This document shows, piece by piece, positions 26,582-29,269 of a stretch of 64,000 bases of DNA (position 1 is the first letter of the stretch; every line of letters begins with the position of its first letter). This stretch comes from Candidatus Bathyarchaeota archaeon. Its GTDB lineage: Archaea > Thermoproteota > Bathyarchaeia > Bathyarchaeales > Bathycorpusculaceae. The notes below the pieces were generated by a model, which ran no database searches, had not been told where the DNA came from, and saw only the letters and a program-made list of their open reading frames with translations. The stretch is taken from contig CALMWK010000125.1 of assembly GCA_937873375.1 (NCBI GenBank), positions 24,870-88,869 of the forward strand, written 5' to 3'. Both the position numbers and the translations under genes were made by a program.

Positions 26582-27676
26582 ATGAAACCCGTAATGGTGG
26601 TTACAGGCACCAGACCTGAAATCATAAAAATGGCGCCCGTCCTCAGGGCGCTGCGCAAACGCAAACTCCCAACTTTCTTTGTTCACTGCGGGCAACACTA
26701 CGACTATGATATGGCGCAGAAATTTATCGAAGACCTTGAACTTCCAGCGCCAGATTTCTCGTTCAAACTCAAAGGGGCATCACCCAACACGCAGATGGCA
26801 CGTATCATCACCCACATGGATAAACTGGTAAAAGAAAAACAGCCCTCAATTGTTCTGGTGGAAGGTGACACGAACACGGTTTTGGCATCCGCCATAGCAG
26901 CGAACAAGCGTGGAGTTCCAGTGGGGCATGTTGAGGCGGGTTTGAGAAGTTTTGACCTACGGATGCCTGAGGAACATAACAGGCGCTTAACAGACCACGT
27001 TTCCACGTTTCTGTTTGCTCCAACCAAGACGGCAGAGGCAAATTTGAAGCGAGAGAGTGTTTGGGGCAAAATCTTCGTCACAGGCAACACCGTTATAGAC
27101 GCAGTAAACCAGCACCTGCCAATAGCAGAAAAGAAATCAAAGATACTAAAAGAAATCCGGTTTGACAGGTTTGTTTTGGCTACAGCACACAGGGCAGAAA
27201 ACGTGGATGACCTTGCAGTCCTGAAGAATTTCATAGAGGCGTTTGCTGAGTCGCCTGTGCCTGTGGTTTACCCGATGCATCCGCGCACCAAAAAACGGCT
27301 ACGCCAAAACGGACTTTACACCCAAATCAAGAAGTGCAAAAAAGTTCAGGTTCTTCCACCATTAGGCTACTTGGACTTTTTGGTTCTGATGAAAAAATGC
27401 GAGTTGCTGGTGACTGATTCTGGTGGAATCCAAGAGGAAGCTACTGCGCCAGCAATACGGAAACCTGTTTTGGTGATTCGGCTCTCAACTGAGAGGCAGG
27501 AAGCGGTTGAAGCAGGATTCGCGAAAGTTGTAGGAACGGGAAAGCAGGAAATCTTAGCCGCTATAAAGGCGGCTGTGGAAAACAAAAAAGAATTGCCTAA
27601 TGAGTCGCCTTTTGGAGACGGAAAAGCCGCAGAGAAAACAGTGAAAAGAATAGAGGAAGAATTCGTTAGGGCTTAA
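26582..27676 (+). CDS. wecB: UDP-N-acetylglucosamine 2-epimerase (non-hydrolysing)
   Basis: VTGTRPEIIKMAPV, VEGDTNTVLA, HVEAGLRS and DSGGIQEE motifs. Confidence 0.9.
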   Translation: MKPVMVVTGTRPEIIKMAPVLRALRKRKLPTFFVHCGQHYDYDMAQKFIEDLELPAPDFSFKLKGASPNTQMARIITHMDKLVKEKQPSIVLVEGDTNTVLASAIAANKRGVPVGHVEAGLRSFDLRMPEEHNRRLTDHVSTFLFAPTKTAEANLKRESVWGKIFVTGNTVIDAVNQHLPIAEKKSKILKEIRFDRFVLATAHRAENVDDLAVLKNFIEAFAESPVPVVYPMHPRTKKRLRQNGLYTQIKKCKKVQVLPPLGYLDFLVLMKKCELLVTDSGGIQEEATAPAIRKPVLVIRLSTERQEAVEAGFAKVVGTGKQEILAAIKAAVENKKELPNESPFGDGKAAEKTVKRIEEEFVRA

Positions 27677-28446
27677 GAGATGTAAGTAGTTTTTTTATCT
27701 TCTTCTTTGCGGGTTTCTTCAGCCTGCAAAACTCTGGTCTCTTCAATCTTCTGCAGTCGCGTCACCATCTTATCCGCTTTTACGATGTCTTCGTCTAAGC
27801 CGGCAAGGTCAAGGTTGAAGCTGAACATGTTTTTTAGAACTTCCAGAACGCTTCTTGAAGCTAATGGGTCAGGTAGGTAACCGCGTGTTTCACCTAAAAG
27901 GCAGAGGGCGTTGATTTTTTGGAAGCGGGCTAAGCCGAGGATTAAGCCTGCGGTGCCGACTATGGGGCTTCCTGAGGGGCTCACGGTTGAGCCTGCGTTG
28001 AGGGCTTGGTTGAGGATTTCTTGGTTTGTGCCTGCGACGATGACTTTGGGTTTGTCTTTGGCTTCCATGCGGTATCCGCCGATGGTTACGATGGTTTTTA
28101 CTTTGTGTTTTTTGCTAAAGTCTATCATGCAGTCGGCGATTTCGTATTGTCCTTCAATGGTTTGAGATTGGCTGTCGCCGGTGAAGAAGATGAGGTCGTT
28201 GGGTCCAGCGGTGTTTTTCACGTAGTAGAATGCTCCGCGCAGGAGCCTAACGTTGCCTTTTTTGTTAACAAGAACAAAGTAAGGAAAGTGCGGTGAGTAT
28301 AGGTAGGCGAATTTTTGGGCTTTCAGTTGTTTGATGAGGTAGCGGATGGCGATTTTGCCGACTAGTCCCAAACCGGGTAATCCTTCGATGAGGACTGGGT
28401 TGTTTGCTTCGATTTTGGCGATTTCTTTGATGTAGGTGGCTTTCAT
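27673..28446 (-). CDS. PAC2-family proteasome assembly chaperone (COG1938)
   Basis: LIEGLPGLGLVGKIA N-terminal signature. Its ATG overlaps the Nop10 stop (ATGA). Confidence 0.7.
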   Translation of the reverse strand: MKATYIKEIAKIEANNPVLIEGLPGLGLVGKIAIRYLIKQLKAQKFAYLYSPHFPYFVLVNKKGNVRLLRGAFYYVKNTAGPNDLIFFTGDSQSQTIEGQYEIADCMIDFSKKHKVKTIVTIGGYRMEAKDKPKVIVAGTNQEILNQALNAGSTVSPSGSPIVGTAGLILGLARFQKINALCLLGETRGYLPDPLASRSVLEVLKNMFSFNLDLAGLDEDIVKADKMVTRLQKIEETRVLQAEETRKEEDKKTTYIS

Positions 28447-28625
28447 TTTGTTAATTGTTCCTTTCTTTGGGCTAATCGGTATTTCATGTATTTGTCGTCA
28501 GGGGAATACTTTGCGGGGTGAGGGCTGTGGACGGGTCCGCCGCAGTGTGGGCAGGTGTCTGTTTTTAATGTGTAGTTGTTGCATTTTTCGCATTGGCGTA
28601 ATAACCAAACCAGTGTTTTTCCCTT
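28443..28625 (-). CDS. nop10: H/ACA RNP protein Nop10, with no canonical start codon
   Basis: Not in the ORF track. My translation reads KGKTLVWLLRQCEKCNNYTLKTDTCPHCGGPVHSPHPAKYSPDDKYMKYRLAQRKEQLTK. There is no ATG, GTG or TTG between the upstream in-frame TAG (28626-28628) and the first Cys. The only candidate start is CTG at 28613. Confidence 0.8.
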   Translation of the reverse strand, partial: KGKTLVWLLRQCEKCNNYTLKTDTCPHCGGPVHSPHPAKYSPDDKYMKYRLAQRKEQLTK

Positions 28626-28754
28626 CTAAAAGAGTGAGGTTTTGGAGGTGTGGAGTAAGCCTTGTTTGGTGTAGGTGCCATAGTTGGTGACGGGTTCTAT
28701 TGTGGCAATTACTAAGTCGCCGACTTCTGGCTGTTGGGGCTTGCTTTCCGCCAT
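28626..28754 (-). pseudogene. aIF2-alpha-like N-terminal (S1/OB) relic, 42 codons ending in TAG
   Basis: The ATG at 28754 lies 18 nt after the S27e stop. MAESKPQQPEVGDLVIATIEPVTNYGTYTKQGLLHTSKTSLF matches the aIF2alpha N-terminal pattern (PxxGE.V.ATV....YGAF...H.SE). It sits exactly where aIF2alpha is found in the conserved cluster. Confidence 0.6.
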
Positions 28755-28772
28755 TACTTTTGCGCTTCCCGC

Positions 28773-28970
28773 TTATTCCAAGACTGCTTGTATGTCGCCT
28801 TTTATTTTTGCTTTTCCGCCACTTGGTTCGGCGAGGACGACGCTGCACACGTTGCAGGTAACGATGTTCACTGCGTTGCTGAAGACGAGTTGTTCGTTAC
28901 CGCATTTTGGGCATTTTACCCGTAGGAAAGTGCTGCTTGGTTTGGGGACGAGTTTGTTCCATTCGCTCAT
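28773..28970 (-). CDS. rps27e: 30S ribosomal protein eS27
   Basis: MSEWNKLVPKPSSTFLRVKCPKCGNEQLVFSNAVNIVTCNVCS is a C4 zinc ribbon. The track ORF starts 30 codons too early. Confidence 0.9.
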   Translation of the reverse strand: MSEWNKLVPKPSSTFLRVKCPKCGNEQLVFSNAVNIVTCNVCSVVLAEPSGGKAKIKGDIQAVLE

Positions 28971-28993: not shown

Positions 28994-29269
28994 TTATCCG
29001 ATTACTAGTTTTCGCAGGCGTATACCGTCTTTGTGTCTCATGTAGTTGCAGGTTTTGCATTTGAGGCGGAGGGTTTGTTTTTTGGTGGTTTTGGCGAATT
29101 CTTTTTGCAGAGGGAAGCCTTGTCCGCCGTAGCCTTCTTTTTCGCGTGCGTGGTGGCGTTCGCCTTTGGCTAGGGCTCTGCGTTTTCCTGCTTTGTATAG
29201 GGAGACTGCGTGAGCTTTGTGAGTTTTACATTTTGGACAGTACGTAGTTACTTCTTTGGGAACGTTCAC
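28994..29269 (-). CDS. rpl44e: 50S ribosomal protein eL44 (L44e)
   Basis: (M)NVPKEVTTYCPKCKTHKAHAVSLYKAGKRR...LKCKTCN. No in-frame ATG is nearby. The GTG at 29269 (or 29278) is the likely start. Confidence 0.85.
   Translation of the reverse strand: MNVPKEVTTYCPKCKTHKAHAVSLYKAGKRRALAKGERHHAREKEGYGGQGFPLQKEFAKTTKKQTLRLKCKTCNYMRHKDGIRLRKLVIG

What the first reader, a model, noticed from the sequence alone, without database searches (positions are those of the whole stretch)
28443..28754. Broken L44e-S27e-aIF2alpha-Nop10 cluster: a 42-codon aIF2alpha relic, one in-frame TAG, then a Nop10 with no canonical start
On the minus strand an ATG at 28754, 18 nt after the S27e stop, opens MAESKPQQPEVGDLVIATIEPVTNYGTYTKQGLLHTSKTSLF. 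This reads like the first strands of the S1/OB domain of aIF2alpha. A TAG follows at 28628-28626. The same frame then continues as KGKTLVWLLRQCEKCNNYTLKTDTCPHCGGPVHSPHPAKYSPDDKYMKYRLAQRKEQLTK, a clear Nop10 with a double CxxC ribbon and SPDDKY. The whole span 28443-28754 is 104 codons in a single frame. There is no ATG, GTG or TTG between the TAG and the first zinc-ribbon Cys; the only candidate start is CTG at 28613. The Nop10 TGA overlaps the ATG of the PAC2 gene. In most archaea a full aIF2alpha of about 260 aa sits at exactly this position. Several explanations are possible. An in-frame deletion may have removed most of an essential gene and the Nop10 start. Nop10 may be made by TAG readthrough, reinitiation or a CTG start. 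Alternatively the assembly may have collapsed here. Genome-wide TAG reassignment is unlikely, because TAG ends at least four ordinary genes in this window (6552, 17586, 34257, 53702).
Basis: partly seen in the sequence, partly recalled or inferred. Interest (0 to 1): 0.72.

Follow-up and report, generated by a model that had tools for sequence, protein, structure and literature searches.

The report
Decayed aIF2-alpha gene before CTG-start Nop10
In this soil archaeon (Bathyarchaeia), the translation-factor gene that normally sits before the small RNA-modification gene Nop10 has been reduced to a dead stump, and Nop10 now starts on a rare CTG codon but is still kept working. This is a real and old change, not an assembly error or a recoded stop codon.

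Summary
Its most striking parts, however, have ordinary explanations.

- **The relic.** The 42-codon ORF is a true remnant of aIF2alpha. It keeps residues 1-46 minus 6 codons, plus the last 6 codons in another frame. A 629-nt deletion and a later 18-nt deletion produced it.
- **The in-frame TAG.** It is the Phe-Arg pair (TTT AGA) of the old aIF2alpha C-terminus read in the Nop10 frame. 51 of 98 related loci carry it inside intact genes.
- **The Nop10 start.** It was not deleted. The CTG lies exactly where relatives have ATG (47), GTG (38) or TTG (12). One G-to-C change converted ATAGTG to ACACTG.
- **Not an artefact.** An independent assembly about 8% diverged (L066) has the same junction and the same CTG. 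Nop10 is under purifying selection (dN/dS about 0.13).
- **Translation.** The relic ORF stops 12 nt before the CTG, within the range measured for termination-reinitiation in Haloferax.
- **Wider pattern.** Five other Bathyarchaeia species carry differently broken relics at this locus, interleaved with intact relatives.
- **Where the working gene may be.** A large single clade of aIF2alpha genes sits at a different locus. It probably supplies the working gene, but I could not show this for this genome.

Moderately interesting.

The parts
28994..29269 (-). Ribosomal protein L44e gene (GTG start), first gene of the conserved cluster
   Evidence: Pfam PF00935, E=1.3e-25. 99% identical to L001.
28773..28970 (-). 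Ribosomal protein S27e gene. Its TAA is 18 nt upstream of the relic ATG.
   Evidence: Pfam PF01667, E=1.3e-22. The identical protein occurs on the independent contig L066.
28626..28754 (-). Relic mini-ORF: 42 codons plus TAG. It begins at the original aIF2alpha ATG with the original upstream spacer and ends 12 nt before the Nop10 CTG.
   Evidence: The spacer is conserved with L001 and L066.
28635..28754 (-). Piece homologous to aIF2alpha residues 1-46. A secondary 18-nt (6-codon) in-frame deletion lies between 28668 and 28667.
   Evidence: tblastn against L001 aIF2alpha: 65% identity, E=4e-13. Clade HMM positions 1-46, E=1.8e-11. L066 lacks the 18-nt deletion. dN/dS 0.51 against L066.
28631..28637 (-). 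Junction of the 629-nt deletion, which removed about codons 47-256 of aIF2alpha. Position is good to a few nt.
   Evidence: DNA alignment of window, L066 and both ends of the L001 gene. ATG-to-start distance is 788 nt in L001, 159 nt in L066 and 141 nt in the window.
28613..28633 (-). 3' remnant of aIF2alpha in its own frame: TCT TTT AGA AGG GAA AAA CAC = S F R R E K H. The old TAG stop is now CAC.
   Evidence: TAG occupies -15..-13 in 51 of 98 related loci.
28616..28627 (-). Purine-rich AGAAGGGAAAAA element upstream of the Nop10 start. It is kept in every relic locus and is a possible weak Shine-Dalgarno sequence (inferred).
   Evidence: Conserved as TTTAGAAGGGA(G/A)AA in relatives. All six relic types keep it.
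28611..28613 (-). CTG at the conserved Nop10 start position
   Evidence: Aligns with Pfam profile position 1. Relatives have ATG 47, GTG 38, TTG 12 here, and CTG only in L066. ACACTG replaces ATAGTG.
28443..28613 (-). Nop10 coding sequence: 56 codons plus TGA, with a double CxxC zinc ribbon and SPDDKY.
   Evidence: PF04135, E=4.4e-24. dN/dS is 0.13-0.14 against L066 and 0.08 against L001.
27673..28446 (-). PAC2-family (proteasome assembly chaperone-like) gene. Its ATG overlaps the Nop10 TGA as ATGA.
   Evidence: PF09754, E=1.2e-42. Used to fetch 58 related loci.

Best explanation
The window comes from a Bathyarchaeia (Bathy-6-like) genome in which the aIF2alpha gene of the conserved L44e-S27e-aIF2alpha-Nop10-PAC2 operon is a dead relic.

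**How the relic arose.** A 629-nt deletion removed codons of about 47-256 and shifted the frame. An 18-nt deletion and near-neutral substitutions followed. This much is shown.

**The TAG.** The frameshifted relic ORF now runs into a TAG that was always there as the out-of-frame TTT AGA of the aIF2alpha C-terminus. No recoding is involved.

**The Nop10 start.** In relatives, the aIF2alpha stop overlaps the Nop10 start by one base (TAGTG, TAATG or TGATG), which is the classic layout for translational coupling. Once the old stop was no longer read, one G-to-C change turned ATAGTG into ACACTG. The Nop10 start position therefore now carries CTG.

**Nop10 is still made.** Purifying selection persisted while the two CTG-bearing lineages diverged, so the protein is still produced (inferred).

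**How Nop10 is translated (inferred).** Initiation is at CTG 28613. I think it most likely uses ribosomes that translate the 42-codon relic ORF from the intact aIF2alpha start signals, terminate at the TAG 12 nt upstream, and reinitiate. The conserved purine-rich element may help.

**Where aIF2alpha function comes from (inferred, not shown for this genome).** It is most likely supplied from another locus. The best candidate is the relocated 'ALT' aIF2alpha lineage that is common in close relatives.
For: **Organism and synteny**
- 58 related GTDB loci are all Bathyarchaeia or are binned with them.
- Most have a 262-aa aIF2alpha between S27e and Nop10.

**Relic homology**
-.

**Deletion size, junction and the CTG**
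-.

**Not an artefact**
- L066 is a Logan contig from run SRR18595300 with an identical S27e protein. It is 92% identical in DNA over 1147 nt.
- It has the same junction, the same TAG and the same ACACTG, but lacks the 18-nt deletion.
- Between window and L066, dS is 0.13-0.33, so the state is old.

**The TAG is incidental**
- 51 of 98 related loci have TAG at -15..-13 inside the intact gene.
- TAG ends 20 of 62 long ORFs in the window.

**Start position**
- Pfam profile position 1 falls on the CTG.
- All three other NTG codons occur there in relatives, and 71 of 98 loci have a 1-nt stop/start overlap.

**Nop10 is functional**
- 3 nonsynonymous against 5 synonymous changes versus L066; binomial P=0.012 against neutrality.
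- Omega is 0.08-0.13, within the range of 0.05-0.12 seen for other Nop10 pairs.
- The relic has omega 0.51, not distinguishable from neutral (P=0.18).

**Reinitiation range**
- In Haloferax volcanii, 13 of 14 overlapping gene pairs tested (in H. volcanii and E. coli) are strictly coupled (PMC6728339).
- Stop-to-start gaps of 13-14 nt substantially lowered reinitiation but did not abolish it; 22-23 nt abolished it (PMC10666635).
- The gap here is 12 nt.
- Either of the other two frames would carry ribosomes past the Nop10 start.

**A working aIF2alpha elsewhere**
- Intact syntenic copies in the same clades have dN/dS of 0.04-0.07, so the gene is not generally dispensable.
- 42 of the best 80 metagenomic aIF2alpha genes lack S27e and Nop10 as neighbours. 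They form one clade nested next to the L005/L008 group, have their own conserved neighbours, and have dN/dS of 0.03-0.07.
- No long contig carries both types in the lists examined.
Against: - No expression data exist. CTG initiation and reinitiation are inferred from anatomy and from Haloferax experiments, not from Bathyarchaeia.
- The purine-rich element matches the anti-Shine-Dalgarno sequence poorly (my own reading of the sequence).
- The selection test on Nop10 rests on only 8 substitutions.
- I could not place an ALT-type or any other aIF2alpha in the genome of the window or in any relic-bearing MAG.
- The relics are recent and independent, whereas the ALT clade is old (as low as 73% identity within it). 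L026's relic is closer to the L008 syntenic gene than to ALT. A simple 'one duplication, then decay' history therefore does not fit. Long coexistence of two copies or horizontal transfer must be invoked.
- In two relic loci, no ORF that starts at the aIF2alpha ATG ends next to the Nop10 start. L006 has no upstream relic ORF at all. In L026 that ORF stops after 8 codons, although a 90-aa ORF from an internal ATG still ends at the native overlap. An ORF from the original ATG is therefore not strictly required where the start codon is GTG.
Confidence: 0.62

Rival explanations
1. True loss. The window lineage, and the other relic-bearing species, have no aIF2alpha at all and run initiation with aIF2 beta-gamma only.
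For: - No aIF2alpha lies elsewhere in the 64 kb.
- No full-length protein between 88% and 100% identical to the sister species' aIF2alpha exists in the 5.8-billion-cluster database.
- None of the top hits sits on the contigs that carry relics.
- There are at least five independent decay events.
- In Haloferax volcanii the aIF2alpha gene could be deleted, though with a severe growth defect (PMC3828320).
Against: - The window's genome is itself absent from the databases, so absence of hits says little.
- Intact copies in sister genomes are under strong purifying selection, with omega 0.04-0.07.
- A large relocated aIF2alpha clade exists in close relatives.
- aIF2alpha is regarded as a universal archaeal gene (general knowledge).
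Confidence: 0.1
2. Nop10 initiates at the CTG on its own, by Shine-Dalgarno-guided de novo initiation. The relic ORF is irrelevant debris that has not yet been lost.
For: - L006 has no upstream relic ORF at all. L026's ORF from the aIF2alpha ATG stops about 330 nt upstream, although an internal-ATG ORF still ends at the native overlap.
- The AGAAGGGA element is conserved in every locus.
- The in-frame retention of relic ORFs is not statistically significant: 3 of 5, P=0.21.
Against: - L006 and L026 have GTG, not CTG.
- CTG is a very weak initiator in the bacteria tested (my own knowledge) and was not seen in 97 other loci.
- The CTG lineage has kept the relic ATG, the frame (the second deletion is 18 nt) and a stop 12 nt upstream through dS of about 0.2.
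- The SD match is weak.
Confidence: 0.2
3. Nop10 is itself a pseudogene, or is barely expressed, in this lineage. The start-codon mutation killed it.
For: - There is no canonical start.
- Nop10 DNA diverges unusually from L001: 83.5% identity against 94-96% for L44e and S27e, and dS of 1.0.
Against: - The ORF is intact in both CTG lineages with all zinc-ribbon Cys and the SPDDKY motif.
- Omega is 0.08-0.14, as in relatives; P=0.012 against neutrality.
- Its TGA still overlaps the PAC2 ATG.
Confidence: 0.06
4. TAG readthrough or recoding (for example pyrrolysine) produces a 103-aa relic-Nop10 fusion.
For: The relic ORF and Nop10 are in one frame separated by a single TAG, in both the window and L066.
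Against: - The TAG pre-exists in 51 of 98 relatives inside intact aIF2alpha, in another frame.
- TAG is the stop of 20 of 62 long ORFs here.
- The relic part evolves nearly neutrally and lost 6 codons.
- In all relatives Nop10 starts at this NTG.
Confidence: 0.02
5. Assembly collapse or a chimeric contig created the short interval.
For: The window is probably from a MAG. Four of the five relic-bearing reference loci are long-read MAGs from one project.
Against: - The same junction occurs in an independent assembly from another sequencing run that is 8% diverged.
- The relic shows secondary decay.
- Other relics have different breakpoints in different species, and one is in a MEGAHIT-named (k127) assembly.
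- Flanking genes are intact and the window is 83% coding.
Confidence: 0.02

Closest known systems
Canonical archaeal L44e-S27e-aIF2alpha-Nop10-PAC2 gene cluster
   Same: Gene order, orientation, the S27e-to-ATG spacer, the aIF2alpha 3' end with the Nop10 initiation region, and the Nop10/PAC2 ATGA overlap are all retained.
   Different: The aIF2alpha body (about codons 47-256) is deleted and the rest is decaying. The stop/start overlap ATAGTG has become ACACTG.
Translational coupling by termination-reinitiation at overlapping or closely spaced gene pairs (Huber et al. 2019, 2023; Haloferax volcanii and E. coli)
   Same: An upstream ORF terminates within the experimentally defined reinitiation range of the downstream start: 12 nt here. 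Reinitiation was reduced but not lost at 13-14 nt and gone at 22-23 nt. Relatives have the classic -1 overlap in 71 of 98 loci.
   Different: The upstream ORF is a non-functional remnant, not a partner gene, and the restart codon is CTG. Nothing has been tested in Bathyarchaeia.
Non-AUG initiation in prokaryotes (GTG and TTG common, CTG rare)
   Same: The start position of this gene tolerates A, G or T at its first base across species. GUG and UUG initiation is accepted for archaea and bacteria (PMC4705826).
   Different: CTG at a conserved start of a conserved archaeal gene, kept through speciation, is unusual: 1 lineage among 98 loci.
Gene relocation or paralogous displacement followed by in-situ decay of the ancestral copy (unitary pseudogene relics)
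   Same: Different breakpoints in at least five lineages, relaxed selection on the relic, and a functional-looking homologue lineage at another locus.
   Different: Co-occurrence of a relic and the relocated copy in one genome was not demonstrated. The relocated clade looks older than the relics.
Haloferax volcanii aIF2alpha deletion mutant (Gabel et al. 2013)
   Same: It shows an archaeon can live without aIF2alpha.
   Different: That was a laboratory deletion with a severe growth defect. Here the losses are natural, recurrent and probably compensated.

Membership tests
Nop10 (PF04135, H/ACA RNP subunit) | Sequence match to the family profile over its full length | tested here: met
   E=4.4e-24, 84.8 bits against a cutoff of 27.2, profile positions 2-51 of 52.
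Nop10 (PF04135, H/ACA RNP subunit) | Zinc ribbon (CxxC...CxxC) and the conserved C-terminal SP(D/E)DKY segment | tested here: met
   CEKC...CPHC and SPDDKY are present in the window and in L066.
Nop10 (PF04135, H/ACA RNP subunit) | A translatable gene with an ATG, GTG or TTG start | tested here: not met
   Only CTG is found at the conserved start position. Purifying selection argues that it is nevertheless expressed.
Nop10 (PF04135, H/ACA RNP subunit) | Assembly with Cbf5, L7Ae, Gar1 and guide RNA | not testable with these tools
   The partners are not in the window and no biochemistry is available.
aIF2alpha (S1 domain plus PF07541) | Full three-domain protein of about 260 aa | tested here: not met
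   Only residues 1-29 and 36-46, plus the last 6 codons in another frame, remain. Pfam finds no domain.
aIF2alpha (S1 domain plus PF07541) | Homology of the remnant to the family | tested here: met
   E=4e-13 against L001. Clade HMM E=1.8e-11, the only hit in the window.
Stop-codon recoding (pyrrolysine or TAG readthrough) | TAG depleted as a stop or used in-frame in conserved genes | tested here: not met
   TAG ends 20 of 62 long ORFs. This TAG is an out-of-frame TTT AGA shared with 51 of 98 relatives.
Stop-codon recoding (pyrrolysine or TAG readthrough) | Presence of pylTSBCD | not testable with these tools
   Only 64 kb of the genome is available. No tRNA is present in the window.
Termination-reinitiation coupled gene pair | Upstream stop within about 15 nt of, or overlapping, the downstream start | tested here: met
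   TAG 28628-28626 and CTG 28613-28611 leave a 12-nt gap. Range taken from PMC10666635.
Termination-reinitiation coupled gene pair | Downstream translation depends on upstream translation | not testable with these tools
   Needs reporter assays or ribosome profiling.
Termination-reinitiation coupled gene pair | [quoted passage not shown] | tested here: not met
   The fold of 28570-28690 has a z-score of -1.08, not different from shuffles.

The most novel reading that the evidence does not exclude
aIF2alpha has been lost outright, repeatedly and independently, in several Bathyarchaeia lineages including this one. These archaea would then initiate translation with an aIF2 that lacks its alpha subunit, and the relaxed start-codon use (a CTG-start Nop10) would be a visible consequence. 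A weaker but more likely version: a relocated aIF2alpha cassette spreads among related Bathyarchaeia and repeatedly displaces the ancestral operon copy.
Probability: 0.1. Interest if true: 0.85.

Novelty: new member of a known kind. Interest (0 to 1): 0.42.

Why it matters
For annotation, this is a concrete case in which gene callers limited to ATG, GTG and TTG miss a conserved, selected gene (Nop10). The missing aIF2alpha would also lower a MAG's apparent completeness, because aIF2alpha is, as I recall, in the standard archaeal marker-gene sets.

For biology, it offers a natural experiment on start-codon stringency and ribosome reinitiation in archaea. A dead upstream ORF may be kept only to deliver ribosomes to a CTG.

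The wider pattern is new as far as I could find. The universal initiation-factor gene has decayed independently at least five times in its ancestral operon, next to a large clade of relocated copies. If the relic genomes turn out to lack aIF2alpha altogether, that would overturn the view of it as indispensable in nature. If they carry the relocated copy, it is a tidy example of displacement of a core translation gene.

Tried and rejected
- **Finding the window's genome in the public collections.** Exact look-ups of PAC2, the 42-aa ORF and the epimerase all failed. Only S27e matched, giving L066.
- **Blind look-ups of aIF2alpha homologues for a non-syntenic copy.** P0109, P0012, P0007, P0006 and P0021 were all ordinary syntenic loci.
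- **Matching 'longest contig' lengths of aIF2alpha hits to the relic contigs** (576444, 758421, 423026, 72515, 64898). No match in three searches.
- **Identifying the MAGs that hold ALT copies.**
  - P0200 and P0258 return only ENA analysis ids.
  - P0151 is in GCA_053537635.1 (JAIYTC01), which is not a relic MAG.
  - Cluster member lists gave no accessions.
- **Looking for shared flanking genes.** I compared ALT loci with the window and the PAC2 loci to tie lineages together. Nothing useful emerged.
- **C-terminal sequence as a marker of non-syntenic copies.** It was uninformative.
- **RNA structure around the Nop10 start.** Not significant.
- **tRNA scan of the window.** None found.
- **Literature on aIF2alpha in Bathyarchaeia.** Nothing found.
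- **Rejected readings.**
  - TAG recoding.
  - Assembly collapse.
  - Deletion of the Nop10 start.
Full report
**1. What is in the sequence**

On the minus strand the order is:
- L44e (28994-29269)
- S27e (28773-28970)
- a 42-codon ORF from ATG 28754 to TAG 28628-28626
- 12 nt of spacer
- a Nop10 reading frame from CTG 28613 to TGA 28445-28443
- PAC2 from ATG 28446

Pfam recognises Nop10 (PF04135, E=4e-24). Its alignment starts at profile position 2 on the Val that follows the CTG, so the CTG occupies the family's position 1. No ATG, GTG or TTG lies in frame between the TAG and the zinc ribbon.

**2. Organism and normal state of the locus**

A scan of one genome per GTDB species with the PAC2 protein returned 58 loci. 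All are Bathyarchaeia or contigs binned with them.
- In 52 of the 57 loci that span the interval, a 262-aa aIF2alpha fills the roughly 800 nt between S27e and Nop10.
- In 71 of 98 loci examined, its stop overlaps the Nop10 start by one base, as TAGTG, TAATG or TGATG.
- The Nop10 start codon at that fixed position is ATG in 47 loci, GTG in 38 and TTG in 12.
- The closest relatives of the window use GTG.

**3. What the 42 codons are**

- They align to residues 1-46 of the aIF2alpha of the sister genome L001, with 65% identity and one 6-codon gap, E=4e-13.
- An HMM built from 141 Bathyarchaeia aIF2alpha sequences was run without filters on all 1491 six-frame segments of the window. It hits only this segment (E=1.8e-11; the next best hit is E=1.2).
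- Downstream, in a different frame, the sequence TCT TTT AGA AGG GAA AAA CAC encodes S-F-R-R-E-K-H. This is the conserved aIF2alpha C-terminus (..GSFRREK*) with its stop mutated.
- The distance from the ATG to the Nop10 start is 788 nt in L001 and 141 nt in the window. The difference is a 629-nt deletion plus an 18-nt deletion.
- Because 629 is not a multiple of three, the N-terminal stump now reads in the Nop10 frame.

**4. The TAG**

In that frame the codons TTT AGA of the old C-terminus read as ..T TAG A... The same TAG sits at -15..-13 from the Nop10 start in 51 of 98 related loci, inside intact aIF2alpha genes. TAG terminates 20 of 62 long ORFs in the window. Nothing calls for readthrough or reassignment.

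**5. The CTG**

Relatives read ATAGTG, where TAG is the aIF2alpha stop and GTG is the Nop10 start. The window reads ACACTG. The G-to-C change at 28613 removes the obsolete stop and turns GTG into CTG in one step.

**6. Not an artefact, and old**

The exact S27e protein also occurs on L066, a 1391-bp Logan contig from run SRR18595300.
- L066 is 92% identical to the window over 1147 nt.
- It has the same deletion junction, the same TAG and the same ACACTG.
- It lacks the 18-nt deletion, so its relic is 48 codons.
- Synonymous divergence between window and L066 is 0.13-0.33. This is about as large as either one's distance to L001, which has the intact gene.

The deletion and the CTG therefore arose soon after the split from L001 and have persisted since.

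**7. Selection**

| Gene or segment | dN/dS, window vs L066 | Note |
|---|---|---|
| L44e | 0.04 | |
| S27e | 0 | |
| PAC2 (first 78 codons) | 0.07 | |
| Nop10 | 0.13-0.14 | 3 nonsynonymous, 5 synonymous; P=0.012 against neutrality |
| Relic | 0.51 | 11 nonsynonymous, 6 synonymous; not different from neutral, P=0.18 |

Against L001, Nop10 has omega 0.08, within the 0.05-0.12 of other Nop10 pairs. Nop10 is thus still a selected, and therefore expressed, gene in the CTG lineage. The sample is small.

**8. How Nop10 is probably translated (inference)**

- The relic ORF keeps the original aIF2alpha ATG and upstream spacer. It ends 12 nt before the CTG.
- In Haloferax volcanii, translation of overlapping pairs is strictly coupled (PMC6728339).
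- In that organism, gaps of 13-14 nt substantially lowered reinitiation without abolishing it, and reinitiation is gone at 22-23 nt (PMC10666635).
- Only the present frame stops near the start. The other two frames run 40 to more than 100 nt into Nop10.
- The second deletion (18 nt) preserved that frame.
- The purine-rich AGAAGGGA(A/G)AA element is kept in all relic loci and all relatives. It may act as a weak Shine-Dalgarno sequence.
- No significant RNA structure surrounds the start.

I therefore favour reinitiation at CTG after termination of the relic ORF. Independent SD-guided initiation at CTG is the main alternative.

**9. A wider pattern**

Five other species have no intact aIF2alpha at this locus, and each is broken differently.

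| Locus | What remains |
|---|---|
| L007 | 50-aa in-frame mini-ORF |
| L010 | 53-aa in-frame mini-ORF (residues 1-27 plus 237-262) |
| L030 | 35-aa in-frame mini-ORF |
| L026 | MAERKPEW*, then domain 3 (about 95 aa) in another frame |
| L006 | Only the last 13 codons |

- In a tree of MCM, PAC2, L44e, S27e and Nop10, these loci are interleaved with intact genomes. The window is sister to L001, L007 is sister to L005, L006 groups with L026, and L030 stands apart.
- There were therefore at least five independent decay events.
- All relics keep the last 15-40 nt of aIF2alpha, which is the Nop10 initiation region.
- Intact syntenic copies in the same clades are under strong purifying selection, with omega 0.04-0.07. 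The gene is therefore not generally dispensable.

**10. A relocated aIF2alpha lineage**

A metagenome scan with the L008 aIF2alpha kept the best 80 loci.
- 42 of them have neither S27e upstream nor Nop10 downstream.
- These 42 form one clade nested within the syntenic genes, next to L089, L071 and the L005/L008 group.
- They are 73-100% identical to each other and have omega 0.03-0.07.
- They sit in their own conserved micro-context. A roughly 100-aa ORF often lies upstream, and a roughly 111-aa ORF lies 12-13 nt downstream. Neither has a Pfam match.
- Such 'ALT' copies occur on long public contigs: a 3.05-Mb contig, contigs of 475 kb and 387 kb, and GCA_053537635.1.
- In the hit lists examined, no long contig carries both a syntenic and an ALT copy.

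The natural reading is that genomes with a relic rely on an ALT-type gene.

I could not prove this. The window's genome is not in the collections.

A difficulty remains. The relics look recent (L026's is about 80% identical to L008's gene, by my count from the sequences), whereas the ALT clade is old. Either two copies coexisted for a long time or the ALT cassette moved horizontally.

**11. Verdict**

- It is right that this is a relic, that TAG is not recoded, and that a CTG start or reinitiation is likely.
- It is wrong that the deletion was in frame, that the Nop10 start was removed, that the TAG is significant, and that the assembly may have collapsed.

The feature is a real, old pseudogene scar with a non-canonical but conserved start on a still-selected Nop10. 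It belongs to known kinds: a pseudogene relic after probable gene displacement, non-AUG initiation, and translational coupling. The recurrent decay of aIF2alpha in Bathyarchaeia and the relocated clade are worth a follow-up on whole genomes. I put true loss of aIF2alpha at about 10%.

Noticed in passing
L070-L149 (e.g. L134:2151-3637, L092:2003-3640), L150-L152: About half of the closest metagenomic aIF2alpha genes form a single relocated clade. A conserved ORF of about 111 aa lies 12-13 nt downstream, and an ORF of about 100 aa often lies upstream. Neither has a Pfam match. The outer flanks differ between subclades (TyrRS/TrpRS, CorA, Zip, NosD).
   Followed up: partly
L006, L010, L026, L030 versus the other loci: Four of the five relic-bearing reference loci come from Microflora Danica long-read MAGs, against 9 of 53 intact loci (Fisher P=0.007). 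ALT-type genes on long contigs also appear to come largely from that project. This may reflect habitat or lineage sampling and fits a relic-ALT link.
   Followed up: partly
window 28443-28613 versus L001: Nop10 DNA is only 83.5% identical to L001, whereas S27e is 96% and L44e is 94%. Its dS is 1.0 against 0.19-0.46 for the neighbours. This could be local acceleration after the deletion or a recombination boundary. No closer donor was found among the loci.
   Followed up: partly
L026:5474-6001: This relic keeps a 90-aa ORF (MKMVKVRGT...REK*) equal to aIF2alpha domain 3, the gamma-binding domain. It still ends at the native TAG/GTG overlap, but it has changes at conserved positions (VIAAPKY to VRDAPQY).
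   Followed up: no
L059, L061-L065, L067 (gene tables): Nop10 is frequently not called by the gene finders used for public contigs, which leave a 170-nt 'gap' between aIF2alpha and PAC2. S27e is sometimes missed or replaced by a spurious opposite-strand ORF.
   Followed up: no
L019 (DASPPK010000033.1); P0276 (HUK85525.1): Archaeal Bathyarchaeia loci or proteins are filed under bacterial names (Candidatus Acidiferrales bacterium, Candidatus Acidoferrum sp.). These are probably mis-binned contigs.
   Followed up: no
window 28436-28690 (+), 28498-28848 (-), 28565-28681 (-): Long alternative-frame ORFs of 84, 116 and 38 aa overlap the relic and Nop10 region. The 38-aa one contains the SFRREK remnant. 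They are by-products of the composition and the deletion, not genes.
   Followed up: yes
window 1-64000: There are no tRNA genes in 64 kb. The window holds 62 long ORFs covering 83% of the sequence, with stops TAA 30, TAG 20 and TGA 12. Many genes are preceded by GGTG- or GGAGG-like motifs. There is no sign of general gene decay.
   Followed up: partly
L009, L018 (Nop10 3' ends): In these relatives Nop10 ends several codons earlier, so its stop no longer overlaps the PAC2 ATG. The Nop10/PAC2 overlap is therefore not universal.
   Followed up: no
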